Source: Nitrospirota bacterium (GTDB lineage: Bacteria; Nitrospirota; Thermodesulfovibrionia; Thermodesulfovibrionales; UBA9159). From it: 64,000 bases of DNA. Shown here piece by piece: positions 20,044-37,951 of the stretch. The position numbers and the translations under genes were made by a program. Positions within the stretch are counted from its first letter, which is position 1. Each line of letters opens with the position of its first letter. A model generated the notes under the pieces. That model saw only the letters and a list, made by a program, of their open reading frames with translations. It made no database searches and was not told the DNA's origin. Location: contig CAVOUE010000005.1 in assembly GCA_963699545.1 (NCBI GenBank), positions 256,001 to 320,000 of the forward strand. The letters are read 5' to 3'.

Positions 20044-20508
20044 TCAGGAAATTGAACGATCTTCCTGCCGCCATCGAAGAAGTTCGCCAAGATACGGATG
20101 GCTCACAATTATCCACATGAGAAACGGCAACAGCCATTTGACGCAGAGATACATCTCATAGGCGGGTGAGTCCTCATTTGACTGTGGTTGTCCTGCCGGA
20201 TAAATCACATACTGGATAAACAGCCAGTCGGTGAGAAAGAACGCCATAAGGCCTATACCAATAACAGCTGTCTTTTTCCTGCCGGAGATCCCTGGTGTCG
20301 CAAGCATAAGGGCAATGAATGCGGTTATCGTCATCGAGGAGCCGTAGAGAAAATATTCTATACCGGGTGGAACGTGATACTTTGAGTTCAGCAGGTCCAT
20401 CCCCTGCCCAAGTAACGCTGCATACCCGTGCAGCAGTTGATGCCCGAAAACAAACAGGATGAGGGAATATCCCAGGAATTTAAGAAGGAAGAGATATCCT
20501 GGTTTCAC
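20044..20508 (-). CDS. Exosortase-associated membrane protein
   Basis: 154 aa, about four TM segments; overlaps the exosortase gene. Confidence 0.6.
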   Translation of the reverse strand: MKPGYLFLLKFLGYSLILFVFGHQLLHGYAALLGQGMDLLNSKYHVPPGIEYFLYGSSMTITAFIALMLATPGISGRKKTAVIGIGLMAFFLTDWLFIQYVIYPAGQPQSNEDSPAYEMYLCVKWLLPFLMWIIVSHPYLGELLRWRQEDRSIS

Positions 20509-21034
20509 GGTTCACCACCTTGTCGATCCATATCAGCCACATGAAAACAACCATCACGATGAAGACCACTTGCCAGACGTACTGGTGAAAATATTCGGTG
20601 TACTGAGGCCTGAATTTATCTATCCACGCCATCATAAAAAGCCTCGTCATATTGGCCCCGAAGATGAAGGGTATTCCTGTGACAAGTGCGAGGCCCTTTG
20701 CCTTAAAGGAAGAGGGGTAGACCAGGACAAAAGAAGTGAAGATGAGCATGATGAATATTGCAGTGCATTCGGTTGTGACTAACCATGTGCTGTTGGTGAG
20801 GTATATTGTATTGCTGTCCACAGTTGCCTGAAGACCTGAAAGGTGTATCAGCCCTGTGATCACATAAGAAGTGAATATATCAAGAAAGGCCAGATATTCT
20901 TTCCTGCCGAGATACCAGACTATGAGGTCAAGAAGTACCACTGCAGAACAAAACAGGAGGGCGGTCTTCAGGAATTGTGTATTGCCGGAGACCGCCCCTT
21001 TCTGTTTATTGTCTGAATCCCCTATCTTCGACAT
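20480..21034 (-). CDS. Exosortase/archaeosortase family transpeptidase (XrtH-like short form)
   Basis: Multi-TM protein with catalytic C (TTECTAI), R (GANMTRL) and H (YFHQYVWQ). Confidence 0.8.
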   Translation of the reverse strand: MSKIGDSDNKQKGAVSGNTQFLKTALLFCSAVVLLDLIVWYLGRKEYLAFLDIFTSYVITGLIHLSGLQATVDSNTIYLTNSTWLVTTECTAIFIMLIFTSFVLVYPSSFKAKGLALVTGIPFIFGANMTRLFMMAWIDKFRPQYTEYFHQYVWQVVFIVMVVFMWLIWIDKVVNRETRISLPS

Positions 21035-21051
21035 TCTTGATTCAGGCTTCT

Positions 21052-21654
21052 TTATACTACTCTTTTTTTCCTTGAATAAATAATGACCCCAAGCCCTGCC
21101 AGTCCTATAACTATCAGCCCTATTGTCCCTGTTGCCGGCACTGGTACATATCTTGCCCCGGGACGCACGGCCCAGGCGTAGGCGGGATTAACCTTACCGG
21201 TGTAGCTCTGGATGCCATCGCTGAAGGCGGAAATCCACGCGTATGCCGTATCTGGCGCATACTCCGTACCTGACCAGTAGAAGTAGGTCTGCACATTCGT
21301 AAATGGCCCCGAGTTGGTCAAAGGGCCTCCTGCCACATTGCCCAACTCGGTGTAGTACAGATGCCCCATTTCACTATTGATGCAATTATAAGAGAGACCA
21401 CAAACAGGATCGGCATTGGGAAGCCGCCAGCCGGTGAGACCGGCAAAACCCCCAGCATTGTTCAGACTTGCAGCCCAGGCAACAGCTGAACTCCAAGTCA
21501 TCGCCCCTGCCGTATTGGCATTCTTCAGCCAACTGAGCTGCGTGTCCGTATCATGGATCGTCCCGTCGCCCATGTCCACAAGCGCCCCATGGGCTGAGAC
21601 AGCCAGCCCAAACACCATCACCAAAACGCTTAATAAGAAACATACCCTTTTCAT
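21052..21654 (-). CDS. Secreted DUF1566 (Lcl C-terminal-like) protein with C-terminal sorting signal
   Basis: Signal peptide; DGTIHDTDTQLSWLK, GWRLP, YWSGT, AWAVR; tail VPVPATGTIG + TM + SRKKR. Confidence 0.8.
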   Translation of the reverse strand: MKRVCFLLSVLVMVFGLAVSAHGALVDMGDGTIHDTDTQLSWLKNANTAGAMTWSSAVAWAASLNNAGGFAGLTGWRLPNADPVCGLSYNCINSEMGHLYYTELGNVAGGPLTNSGPFTNVQTYFYWSGTEYAPDTAYAWISAFSDGIQSYTGKVNPAYAWAVRPGARYVPVPATGTIGLIVIGLAGLGVIIYSRKKRVV

Positions 21655-21968: not shown

Positions 21969-21997
21969 AGAACCCCGCCCAAGACGGGCGGGGTTCT
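21969..21997 (-). terminator. Rho-independent terminator of the selenocytochrome gene
   Basis: Perfect 12-bp stem AGAACCCCGCCC/GGGCGGGGTTCT followed on the minus strand by TATTTTT. Confidence 0.8.
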
Positions 21998-22020: not shown

Positions 22021-23223
22021 TTATTTGTCGAGAGATACCTTCTTTGTCACCGAGTGGATCGGATACTTGTTGTCAGGGTTGACGTCCTCGTAGACAAGGT
22101 CCACCGTAACGTCAGCTGCTCTCACCCCTGCAGGGAGATCGAACTCGATCGTCTCTGCCTTTGTCTTATTGGGCTGGAGGCTCGTATCGCGCAGATTTGC
22201 CACTTTCCATTGTGCCCCGTACTTCATCTTTGTGTCGCGGCAGTTTGTGGCTTGAGGGTGATAATGCTTCTCCACTTTCCCGATCTCTTTGCCGTCTGCT
22301 GCCTTTGCGGTCACTACCATGACCACTCTGTTATGGGAGGGTCAGCCATCCGGGATTCTGTGTCCTGCAGCAGTGGTGATTTTCGTTTCTACCACGATCT
22401 TCGGAACATACGTGGCAGCCTTTCTTAGCCACTCATAACCGATGGCCTGAACATCGAGATTAATTGCCTTGGCAAGAAGTTCGGAAGTCCCCTTGTCGTC
22501 ATTGAAGTTGGGCGCGATGAGGTGATCTCCGTTTTTCATGTGGCATTCCTGGCAGGTGTGTGTCCCCCCCGAGGATACGTAGTTATGCAGATAGCTCCCA
22601 TAGAGGTTAGCACACTGGAATGCCTGATCAAACTCAAGGTTTGGACCAAGTCCGTGGCACTGTCCGCAAAAGACCGAATCCTGAATGATAGCGCTCTTCT
22701 TCACCTTCGTGAAAGTCTTATCAGCATGAGAAGCCACGTCTTTCGTGCCGTAAAGAACGCCCATCTCCGGCTCGCCCAATTCTCTCTTGTGGATGATCGC
22801 CTTGGTGTTATGACAGACGATGCAGGTGATCTGCAGCTTGGCGACTTTGGCCGAATCTTTCGCGAGAAGCGCCTCTGCCAATTCAACTGCTACTGAATCC
22901 TCAGCAGAGGTAACAGCCTGCGGGAGGTGGCACTTAAAACATGGGAAATTCTTTAATGTGGCCTTCTTGGGCTCATCCGGAGAAAAAGCGGTTGCACCCT
23001 TTGTCGCGAGCGGCGTCAGCATTAAGCCGCCCTTGACGCCCATCAAAGGTCTTGCATGGTGGGATTTTTCCCACGCTGCATAGATTTCCGCATGACAGGA
23101 TTTACAGCCTGACGAGTCATACATCTTTGCCAGTTCATCGATGGTCTTCGCCTTTTGTGCTGATGCTGTAAACGGCAACGCGATCAGCAGCAGCAAGACC
23201 AGCATAATCTTAAGACCCTTCAT
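22021..23223 (-). CDS. extKL: Pentaheme c-type cytochrome selenoprotein (ExtKL/MHSEP type), UGA at 22344-22342 read as Sec
   Basis: Signal peptide; five CxxCH (CKSCH, CFKCH, CIVCH, CGQCH, CQECH); GHRIPDG-TGA-PSHNRVV continues in frame into ORF 22021-22326; SECIS-like hairpin downstream; 400 aa in total. Confidence 0.88.
22307..22326 (-). promoter_or_regulatory. Bacterial SECIS-like hairpin
   Basis: GTGGTCAT-GGTA-GTGACCGC, an 8-bp stem with a G-led 4-nt loop starting 23 nt after the UGA. Confidence 0.7.
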
Positions 23224-23316
23224 AACCCCTCCTTTTTCATTCGTGCGCCTCCTCCTCCCCCTCAGGACCAGACTCCATATCACCCCCTTTCTTCTTGCTT
23301 TTAAATTCCTATAAAA

Positions 23317-23345
23317 AGTGTACGTCCGATACCGGCCATTGTCAA
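23317..23345 (-). promoter_or_regulatory. Sigma70-type promoter for the selenocytochrome gene
   Basis: TTGACA-N17-TACACT on the minus strand; TTATG-N10-CATAA inverted repeat just upstream (23371-23390). Confidence 0.6.
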
Positions 23346-23534: not shown

Positions 23535-24236
23535 CTATCCGGATAAACGAGAGGCATATACTTCCTCGATACCACCGTTATGCATTTTCATATGCCTCCT
23601 GGTCTGTTTTGCCAGTTCCTTGTTGTGGGTCACCATAAGGAACGTTATCAGTTTTGTTTGATTCATTGTCATGAACAAGTTCATCACCGCTGCCTCGGTT
23701 TCCTCATCAAGATCTCCGGTCGGTTCATCGGCAAGGATCATCTCAGGCTCGTTCATGAAAGCACGCGCAATGGCGATACGCCTTTGCTGGCCGCCGGATA
23801 TCTGAGCAGGGTACGCATCAGCCTTGTCACTCAGTCCGACCAATCTCAATAGTTCCAGGGCCCTCTCTTCCGCCTTACCCGCAGGAAGTTTGCCGGCATG
23901 AAACCCCACAGGGAGAAGGAGGTTCTCCTTTGCGGTCAGCATCGGAAGCAGGCTCGCGAACTGGAATACGAATCCGATCTTCTCGCACCGGTACTCAGAG
24001 AGCCTGTCGGTGTCGAAGGTGTAAATGTCACTGCCGTTAAAGAGAACCCTCCCTGCCGAAGGTTTCGCGATGCCCCCAAGGATCGAAAGAAGGGTCGTTT
24101 TGCCCGAACCGGAATGACCGATGATCGAAACGAACTCTCCGCGATCGATCGCAAATGACGCGTTGTTCACCGCATGAAGCACCGTTTCACCTACGGCGAA
24201 GCTCTTTGTCACCTCTTCAACGACCAGTTGCGGCAA
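23535..24236 (-). CDS. ABC transporter ATP-binding protein (LolD/MacB-like)
   Basis: [33 protein letters not shown] start after GGGGG RBS. Confidence 0.9.
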
Positions 24237-24238
24237 AC

Positions 24239-25435
24239 CTATTCCCCCTTTAATACAATGAGCGGCTCTATCTTCTTTATCCTCTGAATGGGCGAAAGCG
24301 CGCCAACGACACAGATCCCGGTGCCGATCACGAGCCCCGACACGGCAATACACAGACGTTCCACCACGCTCAGGTCCGTTGATATGTTCTTCAAAATGGC
24401 AAACCCTTTGGCGAGCACCAGGGAAAGGACGGTCCCCGAAACAATGCCGATGAGGCTGCCGATACCGCCGATGACCGCCACCTCAAGAAGGAAGAGTCTC
24501 ATCACATGGGACTCTTTTGCCCCGATGGCCCTCATGATCCCCACTTCCTTGGCCCTCTCATTGGCAATGCCGGAAAAAACAGCCCAGGCAAGAAATGCCG
24601 CGAGGAACGACGCAAGGATGATCGTCATGAGGAATATCCGGTTGATGTCCCTCAGTGCATTGAGAACATTCTTGCCGATATCCTTTCTCGCAACGGTATC
24701 GGTTTCGATTATGGAGTCTTCAAGATCTGCTGCAACACGAATAGGATCGTACCCCTTTTTAACCCTGGCAAAGATGACCGATATCTGCCCCGGTTTTATA
24801 TTGGCCTTGCCCTTTTTTAGAATATCATCGATATTGTTCTCATCGATGAATATCGCCGTATCGAGCCCCGTCCCTGTTTTATCAAGCACCCCGACCATCT
24901 TAAAGACGTTCCCAAAAAGGACGCTGTCCACTTCGGTAAGGCCCAAACGGATATTGAACGCTGATTCGCTGCCGACAATAGCCTCCCCTCTTTCGAGCTT
25001 CCTTCCGAGCTTCTTGTTCAGCCAGGGTCTAATGACAAAATCAGTATCCTGGTTGAACGCCACTACAATGGACTCGGGTACATCGCAACACGCGCCTGTT
25101 ATGGTGGCAAGATACGTCTGGTGCGTCAGCGCACCGATCCCATTGATCTTCCTCACCCTCTCCAATATCCCTTTGTCCATATAGAACGTCTTGACCTTAT
25201 TTTCGAGAAGCACGTCCTCTGCAGCGCCTCTTGACCCCGCAGGCACGATCAGCAGGTCTGCGCCAAGTCTTTCGGAAGTGATCCTGATGCTCGAATCGAC
25301 CCGACGCACAAATGACAGGGCAAAGACAAGAACGGATACCAGAAGACCGATCGCTACTATCAGTATCCCCGTTCTGAGCGGTTTTCTTTTCAGGTTCTTT
25401 ATCGCAAGCGAAGAAAGAGTGAATTCGTTTGTCAT
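24239..25435 (-). CDS. ABC transporter permease (MacB/FtsX family)
   Basis: KNLKRKPLRT, RLGADLLIVP, ERAKEVGIMRAIGA; periplasmic ACCD motif. Confidence 0.88.
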   Translation of the reverse strand: MTNEFTLSSLAIKNLKRKPLRTGILIVAIGLLVSVLVFALSFVRRVDSSIRITSERLGADLLIVPAGSRGAAEDVLLENKVKTFYMDKGILERVRKINGIGALTHQTYLATITGACCDVPESIVVAFNQDTDFVIRPWLNKKLGRKLERGEAIVGSESAFNIRLGLTEVDSVLFGNVFKMVGVLDKTGTGLDTAIFIDENNIDDILKKGKANIKPGQISVIFARVKKGYDPIRVAADLEDSIIETDTVARKDIGKNVLNALRDINRIFLMTIILASFLAAFLAWAVFSGIANERAKEVGIMRAIGAKESHVMRLFLLEVAVIGGIGSLIGIVSGTVLSLVLAKGFAILKNISTDLSVVERLCIAVSGLVIGTGICVVGALSPIQRIKKIEPLIVLKGE

Positions 25436-25516: not shown

Positions 25517-26662
25517 TTATTTCTTGTAGTTTGTGTCCAGGCCGCAGAGGATGGCGTTCTTGTCGCCTTTCCCCATGGTCTTGTGACATCCGAAACAGAC
25601 CGAAGCAGTCTTGCCCACAAGCTTCTTGGCATCAGCGTCATACAGCAGCAATACGCCATCCGTGATCTTCTTGCCAGGCGTCGGTTTGCCCTCGGGGTCG
25701 CATCCCTCGGTCTCCGCGGTTCTCAGTGTCAGAAGGGCATATTTGCCGTCAGGCGTCGGCTGTACATCATGGTTCTCGCCAAAATCGGGTTTCGTCATCT
25801 TCTCATCCAGGAGCTTCAGGCTTGCGGCATCGATCACCCACATCCTGTCAGCAGCCGACTGGTAGATGACCTTATCATCAGCGCTGAAATACATTCTGAA
25901 GGTAATGGTCTTCCCGGCCTCGCCCGTAAAGGTGGCTCTCTTAAGCTCTTTCATCTTGCCTTTTTCCAAAGAGGGGAGATCCACAAGGATCATATCCTGC
26001 TTGCCGTTCATTTTTCCGTCCTCGCCTTTCTGGCTGAGCACGATGACAAATTTCTTCATGTCATGAGAATTGATCCCGTGCACGAACTGATAGGTGCCGG
26101 GCTTGTACCCGAGGTCGCTTACGAACACCCTGTGTTTATGGTCCATGGTCTTCTTATCGAATACATCAACATAGCCTTCGCTGCCCATGAACACCGGCAT
26201 GTAGTATGCCTTGCTCTGGCCTGAAGCGCAGTAGACCGGTCCCGTTTTCGCAGGGGACCTCGGATCCGGAGTCATTGCAACATCCTTGATCACCTTGCCT
26301 GTCTTCAGATCGGATTTGCCCACGTGCATCTTCCCGTCCTTGTCCAGCCCGTACGTCGACCAGAACAGCGTGTTCCCATCCACCGCATCAATTCTTGAAT
26401 CATGAGTTTTATAGCCGTCCGGTGAACCGATGCTCACCATATCGAGACTGTTCACCTTAACAGGATCAGCAGCATTATTCGGATCGATGGTCACATCTGC
26501 CTTGGCAAAGTGTCCGCCATGCCCTGCTACGTAAACCGTGGTCGAATATATCTTCTTTGCTGCCGTCGCAATGGAAGTCTTCGAATCAGCAGCGGTGAAC
26601 ACAAGATACGCGCAAAATACAACCGCTACCAACGTCGCAAAAACAACTACTTTCTTCTTCAT
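25517..26662 (-). CDS. Secreted beta-propeller-like protein with one C-terminal CxxCH motif
   Basis: N-terminal signal/anchor; repeated beta-strand blades (HDSRID, HGINSHD, HDVQPTPDGKY); CFGCH near the C-terminus. Confidence 0.65.
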   Translation of the reverse strand: MKKKVVVFATLVAVVFCAYLVFTAADSKTSIATAAKKIYSTTVYVAGHGGHFAKADVTIDPNNAADPVKVNSLDMVSIGSPDGYKTHDSRIDAVDGNTLFWSTYGLDKDGKMHVGKSDLKTGKVIKDVAMTPDPRSPAKTGPVYCASGQSKAYYMPVFMGSEGYVDVFDKKTMDHKHRVFVSDLGYKPGTYQFVHGINSHDMKKFVIVLSQKGEDGKMNGKQDMILVDLPSLEKGKMKELKRATFTGEAGKTITFRMYFSADDKVIYQSAADRMWVIDAASLKLLDEKMTKPDFGENHDVQPTPDGKYALLTLRTAETEGCDPEGKPTPGKKITDGVLLLYDADAKKLVGKTASVCFGCHKTMGKGDKNAILCGLDTNYKK

Positions 26663-27558: not shown

Positions 27559-27828
27559 TTAATAGGGAATGATCACATCATAACCGGCCAGGGCCTTGGC
27601 GATCTGCTCTGTGGTCATCTGCTCAAATTTATTTTCAGGATTGTTCGAAAAAATCTTTGCGTCCATATCGCCAAGGGTCTCGACATTAAGGTCGGTATTC
27701 TCGTCGGATTCAAGCTTTTTGTCCATAACGAATACATTCACCTCATCGTCAGCAAGGGTGAGCCCCACCGCCATCCTTAATGCCTCTGCCTGCCTGTCCC
27801 TTATAAGCACAGCGATTTTCTTTGCCAT
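27559..27828 (-). CDS. DsrF-like small protein (YTD-cluster conserved hypothetical)
   Basis: KKIAVLIRDRQAEALRMAVGLTL...LAGYDVIIPY, a DsrE/F-fold pattern. Confidence 0.7.
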   Translation of the reverse strand: MAKKIAVLIRDRQAEALRMAVGLTLADDEVNVFVMDKKLESDENTDLNVETLGDMDAKIFSNNPENKFEQMTTEQIAKALAGYDVIIPY

Positions 27829-36229: not shown

Positions 36230-36481
36230 TTATCCCTTTTTGATCTTCAGATATATTTTGCCGCCTTCTGTCCTCTTATCCACTACCTCATGACCTACCT
36301 GATCACACATCTGGACTATTGTTTCAACAGACGAAGGATTATCAAGGACCACCTCAAGAACGTCACCCTCGGCCATTTTCTCGAGGGATTTTTTGCAGTA
36401 GATCTGGGGATGCGGACAGACATATCCGCAGACATCAAGCATATATGCTCCCTCACCTGTCTTTTCAAATTTCATAGCCAT
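36230..36481 (-). CDS. tusA: TusA/SirA family sulfurtransferase
   Basis: LDVCGYVCPHP (CPxP) motif, GDVLEVVLDNPSS. Confidence 0.88.
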   Translation of the reverse strand: MAMKFEKTGEGAYMLDVCGYVCPHPQIYCKKSLEKMAEGDVLEVVLDNPSSVETIVQMCDQVGHEVVDKRTEGGKIYLKIKKG

Positions 36482-36517
36482 GACAAACTTCCTCCTTTAA
36501 TTTGTTTTTTTGTTATA

Positions 36518-37951
36518 TCAAAACTCGTCCATCTCCTTTGCCATCTTTCTCTCCGACCACCAGTTGAAGAACTTGACCCCGAAAAAAGCTCCGACTACCA
36601 TGCCTCCGCCGTACAACCATCCGCTCGGATCACCTCCGGCCACCCTGATAAAGAAGGCGCCGATATTGCAGCCGAGGGCAGGTCTTGAACCAACTCCCAT
36701 CAATACGCCGCCGATAAGACCCCAGGCAATAAGTTCGCCTTTCGGCAGCTTGAACTTGAATTCATTGTTCATCCGGGCCATGACCATGGCGCCGAAAATA
36801 ATGCCGAACGACATCCAGAGTGCCGGATTACGCCATGGCTCAGGAAGTCCGTTATTGATTCCGAAGAATATGTTGTTGTGCATATTCCAGCCGAATTTCT
36901 CCAGTATCCACGCCCCGAACTGCCCTTCCTGACTGGTGATATACCAGTACCCGGGGTCAAAGACAGTGCCCTTGATCGAGACATCTGCTTTATGACCCAT
37001 CCTTACGAGAAGCTCTCCGAAGTTCGTGACACCGAACTTGATCTGCATTCCCTTCATCACAAAGATATGGAGTCCGGCAACAATACCGATCAGCACACCC
37101 ATCAGAGTGGTCCTCTTGGACGCCGTTATCATATTCCATAAACCGGCAAGTTCGTCGCCGAACCCCATCGTTGCCCCACCCTTCGCCTTCGCCCTCTTCT
37201 TCATAAAACCTTTTCTTATGTAAAAGACATAGATAACAGTAAGGAGTATCGCCGCCGGTATAAGGGCATTCAGCAGCGAGTCAGCAACAAAATACTTTGC
37301 CGCGCCCGGCAGCGCATCAGAAACAGCCTTTGTATGAGACAATTGCAGTGTCGGCTGATCCCATATATAGCCGGCCAGATAGGTGTCAAAGGATGAGGTC
37401 ATTTTATCGGCAGGAAGTCCTTTAGCCAGCGCTGAATCTACCCATTTCTGGGGGATCAGGAAGTTAAACCATTTGACATTAACAAACACCGCCTGTCCGA
37501 TACAGAGTCCAAAAAACGCGGCTAAGAAAGATGTCCCGTTACCCTCACCTATTTTGTAGAGAGAGCCCGATGCGCAACCACCGGCAAGGACCATCCCGAC
37601 GCCGAAGATCATTCCTGCTATCAAGGTATGTATGCCGAACGGAGCAGGATGGAAAGTGCTCATATTGGTTGAAGCAAGGGTTGCCTGAATAGTACTGAAA
37701 AATATAAGCGCCACCAGAATGCCGACCGCCATTCTCGGGACACCGGCAGCAAAAAGGTCTCTCGAAGCCGAGGCAAAACAGAACCTCCCGTATTGAAGCA
37801 TCATTCCGTAGGCAAATCCGAACCAGATGTACGCCACGAGGTACATGTAATACACGTTTGTCTTATAGTACATCACGCTGATAAGGATAAGGATGCCCGT
37901 GATCAAGAAAGCCCAGATTTGTCCTTTTTTGTTATTGTCTTGATCCGCCAC
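36518..37951 (-). CDS. YeeE/YedE family sulfur compound transporter
   Basis: Multi-TM; GRFCFASA, GMVLAGGCASG and LGCNIG conserved Cys motifs; directly upstream of tusA. Confidence 0.9.
   Translation of the reverse strand: MADQDNNKKGQIWAFLITGILILISVMYYKTNVYYMYLVAYIWFGFAYGMMLQYGRFCFASASRDLFAAGVPRMAVGILVALIFFSTIQATLASTNMSTFHPAPFGIHTLIAGMIFGVGMVLAGGCASGSLYKIGEGNGTSFLAAFFGLCIGQAVFVNVKWFNFLIPQKWVDSALAKGLPADKMTSSFDTYLAGYIWDQPTLQLSHTKAVSDALPGAAKYFVADSLLNALIPAAILLTVIYVFYIRKGFMKKRAKAKGGATMGFGDELAGLWNMITASKRTTLMGVLIGIVAGLHIFVMKGMQIKFGVTNFGELLVRMGHKADVSIKGTVFDPGYWYITSQEGQFGAWILEKFGWNMHNNIFFGINNGLPEPWRNPALWMSFGIIFGAMVMARMNNEFKFKLPKGELIAWGLIGGVLMGVGSRPALGCNIGAFFIRVAGGDPSGWLYGGGMVVGAFFGVKFFNWWSERKMAKEMDEF

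What the first reader, a model, noticed from the sequence alone, without database searches (positions are those of the whole stretch)
22021..23223. Hidden selenoprotein: pentaheme cytochrome read through UGA
Two track ORFs (22342-23283 and 22021-22326) are in the same frame and joined by GAT GGC TGA CCC TCC (IPDG-U-PS). An 8-bp hairpin with a GGUA loop lies 23 nt downstream, within the usual bacterial SECIS spacing. One promoter and one terminator bracket the fused 400-aa gene. It matches the ExtKL/multiheme selenoprotein motif IPDG(U/C)P and implies the genome has selABCD.
Basis: partly seen in the sequence, partly recalled or inferred. Interest (0 to 1): 0.75.

Follow-up and report, generated by a model that had tools for sequence, protein, structure and literature searches.

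The report
Known selenium-containing polysulfide reductase gene
The apparent stop codon in this gene almost certainly codes for selenocysteine, so the two apparent genes are one five-heme enzyme of an already described sulfur-respiration family, with one unexplained change near its active site.

Summary
Reading TGA 22344-22342 as Sec gives a 400-aa pentaheme cytochrome that passes NCBIfam NF040886 ExtKL (456.5 bits, cut-off 250). It aligns with Geobacter MccSep (PDB 9WT8), the polysulfide reductase described in Sci Adv 2026: U294=U325, C204=C239, H99=H122, K340=K372.

All 79 of 80 related loci that cover the site have TGA. The downstream hairpin fits the bacterial SECIS model and shows compensatory changes.

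selA and tRNA-Sec are present. selB has a one-base frameshift and selD was not found; both look like assembly faults. 26 of 131 orthologues are also frameshifted, and selD's neighbours in congeners, including essential metG, are missing too.

Two small twists: (1) this clade lacks MccSep's substrate-binding Arg83 (0 of 38 rows) and carries His three residues after Sec (37 of 38); (2) the genome also holds a Cys paralogue that keeps the Arg. Polysulfide reduction is inferred, not shown. This scan reported the same family before on other DNA (e1-4384136).

The parts
22021..23223 (-). mccSep/extKL gene, 400 aa when TGA is read as Sec
23158..23223 (-). Probable Sec-pathway signal peptide, residues 1-22 (judged by eye; no predictor run)
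   Evidence: sequence
22540..23106 (-). Five CxxCH heme motifs (C40-H44, C95-H99, C134-H138, C186-H190, C224-H228)
   Evidence: invariant in 68 of 68 rows of A2
22612..22614 (-). C204, equivalent of the heme-2 distal ligand C239 of MccSep
22342..22344 (-). In-frame TGA = Sec294, equivalent of U325
   Evidence: TGA in 79 of 79 covering loci
22333..22335 (-). H297 (Sec+3): clade-specific basic residue; MccSep has Pro here
22307..22326 (-). bSECIS hairpin, 8 bp, GGUA loop 23 nt after UGA
22204..22206 (-). K340, equivalent of catalytic K372
23026..23034 (-). K64-G65-G66: the stretch where MccSep has R83; no Arg here
23229..23234 (-). Shine-Dalgarno-like AGGAGG before ATG 23223
23317..23345 (-). 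Sigma70-like promoter match (10 of 12)
   Evidence: consensus match only
21969..21997 (-). Intrinsic terminator-like hairpin (13 bp plus T tail)

Best explanation
One gene encodes a periplasmic pentaheme c-type selenocytochrome of the MccSep/ExtKL family in a sulfate-reducing-type Nitrospirota bacterium. SHOWN HERE: in-frame TGA, conserved covarying SECIS, five heme motifs, C204/U294/K340, selA and tRNA-Sec. INFERRED from established bacterial Sec biology: SelB binds the hairpin and delivers Sec-tRNA to the UGA, giving one chain that is exported, heme-loaded and folded into a heme cap plus an Ig-like stem. [quoted passage not shown] Most likely role: polysulfide/S0 reduction, with selenite as a side substrate. 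INFERRED, weakest step: the positive charge that R83 supplies in Geobacter comes here from H297 in the Sec loop and/or K64.
For: NF040886 456.5 bits vs cut-off 250. 9WT8/9WT9 at E 6e-72 with U, C239, H122 and K372 aligned; profile E 1e-108. TGA in 79 of 79 covering loci among 80; K340 in 79 of 79, C204 in 77 of 77 covered. Stem: 89.9% of cells paired, 3 pairs with two-sided changes, 0 of 500 shuffles reach the covariation score, best slid control 0.056 vs 0.161. First loop G in 79 of 79. All four bSECIS criteria of PMC13188914 are met. Both sides of the TGA are under purifying selection vs L088: 92 synonymous / 26 non-synonymous codons upstream, 37 / 7 downstream. In the model (pLDDT 81.7) the TGA lies inside one beta-sandwich, with strands before and after it. 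The genome keeps TGA at the Sec site of a formate dehydrogenase alpha subunit, two more FDH-like motifs and a DsbC-like protein. It has dsrAB, dsrC, dsrMKOP and aprA.
Against: selD not found and selB frameshifted in this assembly. R83, whose Ala mutant loses activity and fails to fully complement in Geobacter, has no Arg counterpart. The Geobacter ext neighbourhood is not evident, and no flanking gene of the window recurs widely: the linked ABC permease in 8 and the beta-propeller in 6 of 80 loci. No electron donor identified. No expression or protein evidence. The 80 loci are the best 80 of 163 and are related, so 79 of 79 is not 79 independent events. The shuffle control ignores relatedness.
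Confidence: 0.8

Rival explanations
1. It is a true selenoprotein of this family, but the remodelled channel (R83 lost, His at Sec+3, other clade-specific His residues) gives a different preferred substrate or direction, for example selenite or another chalcogen/metalloid species, or a step in sulfur disproportionation.
For: 0 of 38 rows of the window's clade and 0 of 25 of the sister clade have Arg at the R83 column, vs 15 of 17 other rows. H55, H297, H320 and H322 are clade-typical. 10 of 80 loci, all among the Desulfobacterota-type rows, lie near an ACR3 arsenite exporter.
Against: Sec, C204, K340 and all five hemes are kept. A basic residue at Sec+3 in 62 of those 63 rows may simply replace R83. 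The window's own locus has no ACR3 gene among the ORFs examined. Geobacter MccSep was inactive on arsenite and oxyanions other than selenite.
Confidence: 0.15
2. This strain has lost Sec insertion (selB broken, selD deleted), so the gene now ends at TGA and the Cys paralogue on contig C7 does the job.
For: selB is split while 18 of 20 relatives have a one-frame selB. selD was not found here, vs 38 of 40 relatives. A Cys paralogue exists and was not found in the two congeners searched.
Against: The selB break is one extra G in a G run, the only gap in the coding region vs two congeners. One contig in each of 4 unrelated runs also lacks that base (relatives, not this strain). 26 of 131 orthologues show such shifts, about 0.26 per kb, so roughly a 4-in-10 chance for a 1.9-kb gene (my arithmetic). 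corA, ricT and essential metG, next to selD in congeners, have no orthologue in the assembly, and holB hits only 35-37% paralogues. selA, tRNA-Sec and other Sec-type TGA genes remain.
Confidence: 0.04
3. The TGA is a sequencing error, a real stop between two genes, or a Trp/Cys recoding.
For: The assembly is error-prone, and a GTG/ATG lies just downstream of the TGA.
Against: TGA in 79 of 79 relatives. Cys, never Trp, at this site in the 4 stop-free homologues inspected. No Shine-Dalgarno-like motif before GTG 22326. A stop would cut the Ig domain in two. Sec at the equivalent site was shown by MS in Geobacter.
Confidence: 0.01

Closest known systems
MccSep (= ExtKL, GSU2937-2936) of Geobacter sulfurreducens PCA; PDB 9WT8-9WTC; Mihara et al., Sci Adv 2026, PMC13510729; bioRxiv 10.1101/2025.11.18.688581
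   Same: Five CxxCH motifs, Sec in IPDG-U-P, SECIS after the UGA, H122/C239/U325/K372 equivalents, helical heme domain plus Ig-like C-terminal domain. The paper lists Nitrospirota (Thermodesulfovibrionia) as a main host group.
   Different: No Arg at the R83 position. His instead of Pro at Sec+3. Shorter (400 vs a 450-residue PDB chain). Different gene neighbourhood. Host carries dsr and apr genes. A Cys paralogue is in the same genome.
NCBIfam NF040886 multiheme c-type cytochrome (seleno)protein ExtKL
   Same: Passes the equivalog cut-off over profile positions 27-422 of 423; listed as a known selenoprotein family in PMC13188914.
   Different: Nothing at the level of the family model.
Pentaheme cytochrome c552 of Thermochromatium tepidum (PDB 5ZE8)
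   Same: Top structural match of the model: Foldseek TM 0.55; VIA Z 18.1, rmsd 4.1, 303 aligned.
   Different: About 20% identity; a fold relative only. MccSep chains did not appear in either fold search, so no structural comparison with MccSep was obtained.

Membership tests
MccSep/ExtKL | NF040886 score above cut-off | tested here: met
   456.5 vs 250
MccSep/ExtKL | Five CxxCH heme motifs | tested here: met
MccSep/ExtKL | Sec/Cys at the U325 position | tested here: met
   TGA294 aligns with residue 325; TGA in 79 of 79 covering loci
MccSep/ExtKL | Heme-2 ligands H122 and C239, which the paper calls strictly conserved | tested here: met
   H99 and C204 by alignment
MccSep/ExtKL | Catalytic K372 | tested here: met
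   K340
Geobacter-type MccSep active site (not a stated family criterion in the passages read) | Anion-binding R83 | tested here: not met
   Gap or Gly beside K64; 0 of 38 clade rows have Arg, with L014 as proxy for MccSep
MccSep/ExtKL | Periplasmic signal peptide | tested here: inconclusive
   Signal-like N-terminus by eye; no predictor available
MccSep/ExtKL | Heme cap plus Ig-like stem fold | tested here: inconclusive
   Model has a helical N-part and beta-sandwich C-part; MccSep chains were not listed in the fold searches
MccSep/ExtKL | Polysulfide reductase activity; homotetramer | not testable with these tools
   Needs purified enzyme
Bacterial selenoprotein gene | bSECIS: loop 3-9 nt, stem 4-16 bp, G in first two loop positions, 16-37 nt spacing, MFE <= -7.5 | tested here: met
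   Loop 4, stem 8, GG, 23 nt, -12.1
Bacterial selenoprotein gene | selA and selC in genome | tested here: met
Bacterial selenoprotein gene | Intact selB and selD in genome | tested here: inconclusive
   selB +1 frameshift, selD not found; both attributable to the assembly
Bacterial selenoprotein gene | Sec detected in the protein | not testable with these tools
   Needs MS or 75Se

The most novel reading that the evidence does not exclude
The window's gene represents a large, uncharacterised MccSep subfamily (63 of the 84 rows in my tree) in which the anion-binding Arg83 of the heme domain was lost and a His or Lys appeared three residues after Sec. This is either a relocated active-site charge or a change of substrate. 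This genome also pairs that Sec enzyme with an Arg-retaining Cys paralogue (1 of 24 family-positive genomes), which could be a selenium-independent or substrate-distinct partner. The swap happened once or twice on the tree, so it is a hypothesis, not a statistical result.
Probability: 0.3. Interest if true: 0.45.

Novelty: new member of a known kind. Interest (0 to 1): 0.22.

Why it matters
It repairs a split annotation and predicts that this sulfate-reducing-type Nitrospirota lineage has a selenium-dependent route to reduce polysulfide or elemental sulfur. The family paper already makes that general point. The new, testable detail is that this clade lacks a residue found important in the only characterised enzyme. 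That allows a direct test of how general the published mechanism is, and of how natural Cys forms work when the U325C mutant is nearly inactive.

Tried and rejected
1. My scripts labelled window R58 as MccSep R83. Counting the alignment shows R58 = R76, so the 'R58' tallies there say nothing about R83 (corrected).
2. Search for sequencing runs of the selB region: no run held half of the words (best 0.12) and no RNA holder was listed. The strain's own reads could not be checked, neither for selB nor for the window's TGA.
3. Fold searches did not list MccSep chains. No model coordinates were available to me, so the positions of H297 and K64 relative to Sec were not measured.
4. Loose genome-wide SECIS and motif scans were mostly noise; I kept only the FDH-like and DsbC-like sites.
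5. No conserved operon around the gene. YeeE/TusA-like genes lie 13 kb upstream, beyond the 6-kb flanks for most loci.
6. The tree is the quick IQ-TREE version because the careful search did not finish. It has 84 rows; loci with incomplete matches were left out (69 of 80 passed, 67 went into A2).
7. The 71-aa ORF after dsrB had no NCBIfam hit at 1e-25, so DsrD was not confirmed.
8. Recent duplication as origin of the Cys paralogue rejected: 45% identity, and it groups with other Cys forms. Contamination is unlikely: its flanks match congeners at 79-88%.

Full report
OBSERVATION. On the minus strand, ORFs 23283-22342 and 22326-22021 lie in one frame, separated by a single TGA at 22344-22342. 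From ATG 23223, preceded by AGGAGG, reading TGA as Sec gives 400 aa with U294 in IPDG-U-PS and five CxxCH motifs. An 8-bp hairpin starts 15 nt after the codon and its GGUA loop 23 nt after it. Alone it folds at -12.1 kcal/mol (z -4.0); 33 of 2000 synonymous recodings do as well. A 50-nt fragment starting at the UGA prefers another fold. A loose hairpin follows 254 of 6271 in-frame TGAs in this genome, so conservation had to decide. A promoter-like site (23345-23317) and a terminator-like site (21997-21969) flank the gene; they are consensus matches only.

READ-THROUGH IS CONSERVED. A scan of genome contigs kept the best 80 of 163 related stretches. 79 cover the site and all 79 have TGA. Among 41 genomes of the same order, own genome included, 24 pass the family cut-off: 25 of the 31 passing matches contain a TGA and 6 are stop-free. 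The four stop-free ones I inspected have Cys. These two sets overlap in part and consist of relatives, so they are not independent counts. In 37 distinct sequences the stem is 89.9% paired with two-sided changes at three pairs; 0 of 500 shuffles reach the covariation score, and slid controls are far lower (the shuffle control ignores relatedness). Third codon positions in the stem and first loop base are 94-100% conserved, against 30-75% at most flanking codons. The three Cys-type genes folded have no such hairpin at this position. The element meets the four bSECIS criteria in PMC13188914 (passages only). Both halves are under purifying selection, and the predicted model puts the TGA inside one beta-sandwich.

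IDENTITY. The protein passes NCBIfam NF040886 ExtKL and matches Geobacter MccSep, PDB 9WT8/9WT9. I read parts 1-3 of 6 of the bioRxiv text. Of the Sci Adv version, PMC13510729, I read the abstract, Discussion and passages. They show a periplasmic homotetramer with Sec confirmed by MS, a His/Cys-ligated heme 2, polysulfide and weaker selenite reduction, and a requirement for S0 respiration. They name Thermodesulfovibrionia as a main host group. Counting the alignment gives H99=H122, C204=C239, U294=U325, K340=K372. The closest named homologues (88-91%) are Nitrospirota/Thermodesulfovibrionales bins. An earlier AI note of this scan reached the same family on another genome; I had that reading already and do not count it as support.

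SEC MACHINERY. selA and tRNA-Sec with a UCA anticodon are intact. selB is split by one extra G in a G run, the only gap in its coding region against two congeners. selD was not found, although 38 of 40 relatives have it. Both look like assembly faults. The genome is 86.9% complete, and 26 of 131 orthologues of congener proteins (187 queries, 56 without a qualifying orthologue) are frameshifted. selD's neighbours corA, ricT and metG have no orthologue in the assembly either. The genome keeps TGA at the Sec position of a formate dehydrogenase, two further FDH-like motifs and a DsbC-like protein. The strain's own reads were not available; relatives' contigs in 4 of 4 runs lack the extra base.

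HOW IT WORKS. Sec insertion at the UGA is inferred from established bacterial Sec biology. The chemistry is inferred from MccSep: electrons flow through five hemes to the Cys-ligated heme, the selenolate attacks polysulfide, and the intermediate is reduced to sulfide. The host has dsrAB, dsrC, dsrMKOP and aprA and a PsrA/PhsA-like molybdoenzyme below the cut-off, so S0/polysulfide use would be an extra respiratory option. The electron donor is unknown and the neighbourhood is not conserved. I put read-through at about 0.96 and polysulfide reduction as main activity at about 0.8.

DIFFERENCES FROM THE KNOWN ENZYME. MccSep's R83 binds sulfate or selenite beside Sec, and R83A loses activity. The window protein has a gap or Gly there, next to K64. 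With L014 as proxy for MccSep, Arg occurs in 0 of 38 rows of the window's clade, 0 of 25 of its sister clade and 15 of 17 others. At Sec+3 those clades have His (37 of 38) or Lys (25 of 25), while 12 of 15 Arg-bearing rows have Pro, as MccSep does. The two clades form one 63-row branch (support 92, quick tree), so this is one or two events, and spatial compensation was not measured. Second, contig C7 carries a Cys paralogue (TGT, 45% identical, Arg kept). G000 is the only one of the 24 family-positive genomes with both a TGA and a stop-free copy. The word 'paralog' does not occur in the Sci Adv main text, and the R83 passages shown (12 of 16 places) do not discuss its conservation. Only the spreadsheet supplement was searchable; the supplementary PDF figures, which I could not see, may already show this. 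Three library searches listed no other paper on this subfamily.

VERDICT. A real selenoprotein gene and a new member of a known, recently characterised family. Interest 0.22.

Noticed in passing
G000:C7:17065-18228 (L021, L052): Cys-type ExtKL/MccSep paralogue (TGT, no SECIS, Arg83 equivalent kept), 75% DNA identity to a gene in G031 and not found in congeners G001 and G002.
   Followed up: partly
G000:C3:318143-319991 (L010): selB split by one extra base; about one in five orthologues in this assembly is frameshifted, so broken genes here should not be read as pseudogenes.
   Followed up: yes
G000:C4:38439-40554 (L174): A second, divergent dsrAB pair standing apart from the main dsr cluster (dsrA 316.7 bits, below cut-off; dsrB above), near an IS-like ORF pair.
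   Followed up: partly
G000:C9:40908, C3:433793, C3:235015-235935, C3:569360: Further in-frame TGAs at Sec-type sites: three formate dehydrogenase-like genes and a DsbC-like protein with UxxC.
   Followed up: partly
L031-L034, L036, L037: A divergent TGA-containing ExtKL clade with IPDG/VPDG-U-LW and Gln in place of K372 in the pairwise alignments; possibly another functional subtype.
   Followed up: no
L121, L123, L137, L142, L143, L145, L148, L151, L156, L158; L109, L111, L114-L116: Desulfobacterota homologues lie beside an ACR3 arsenite exporter (10 of 80 loci) or SO_0444 and DmeF metal exporters (5 of 80), hinting at a detoxification context in those clades.
   Followed up: partly
window 25517-26662, 24239-25435, 23535-24353 (-): 381-aa secreted protein with one C-terminal CxxCH and no Pfam or NCBIfam hit, followed by an FtsX/MacB-type ABC transporter; found beside the cytochrome in 6 of 80 loci.
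   Followed up: partly
window 36230-37873 and 27559-27828 (-): YeeE/YedE-like transporter and TusA/YedF-like protein, plus an 89-aa DsrE-like ORF (label by recall, no family hit), upstream on the same strand.
   Followed up: partly
window 20044-21654 (-): Exosortase-like gene, membrane protein and Lcl-domain protein lie between the cytochrome gene and ribD; none of the three was found in the 80 related loci, suggesting an insertion.
   Followed up: partly
G007:C152:17615-20780 (L080): Two TGA-containing ExtKL genes of different clades in tandem.
   Followed up: no
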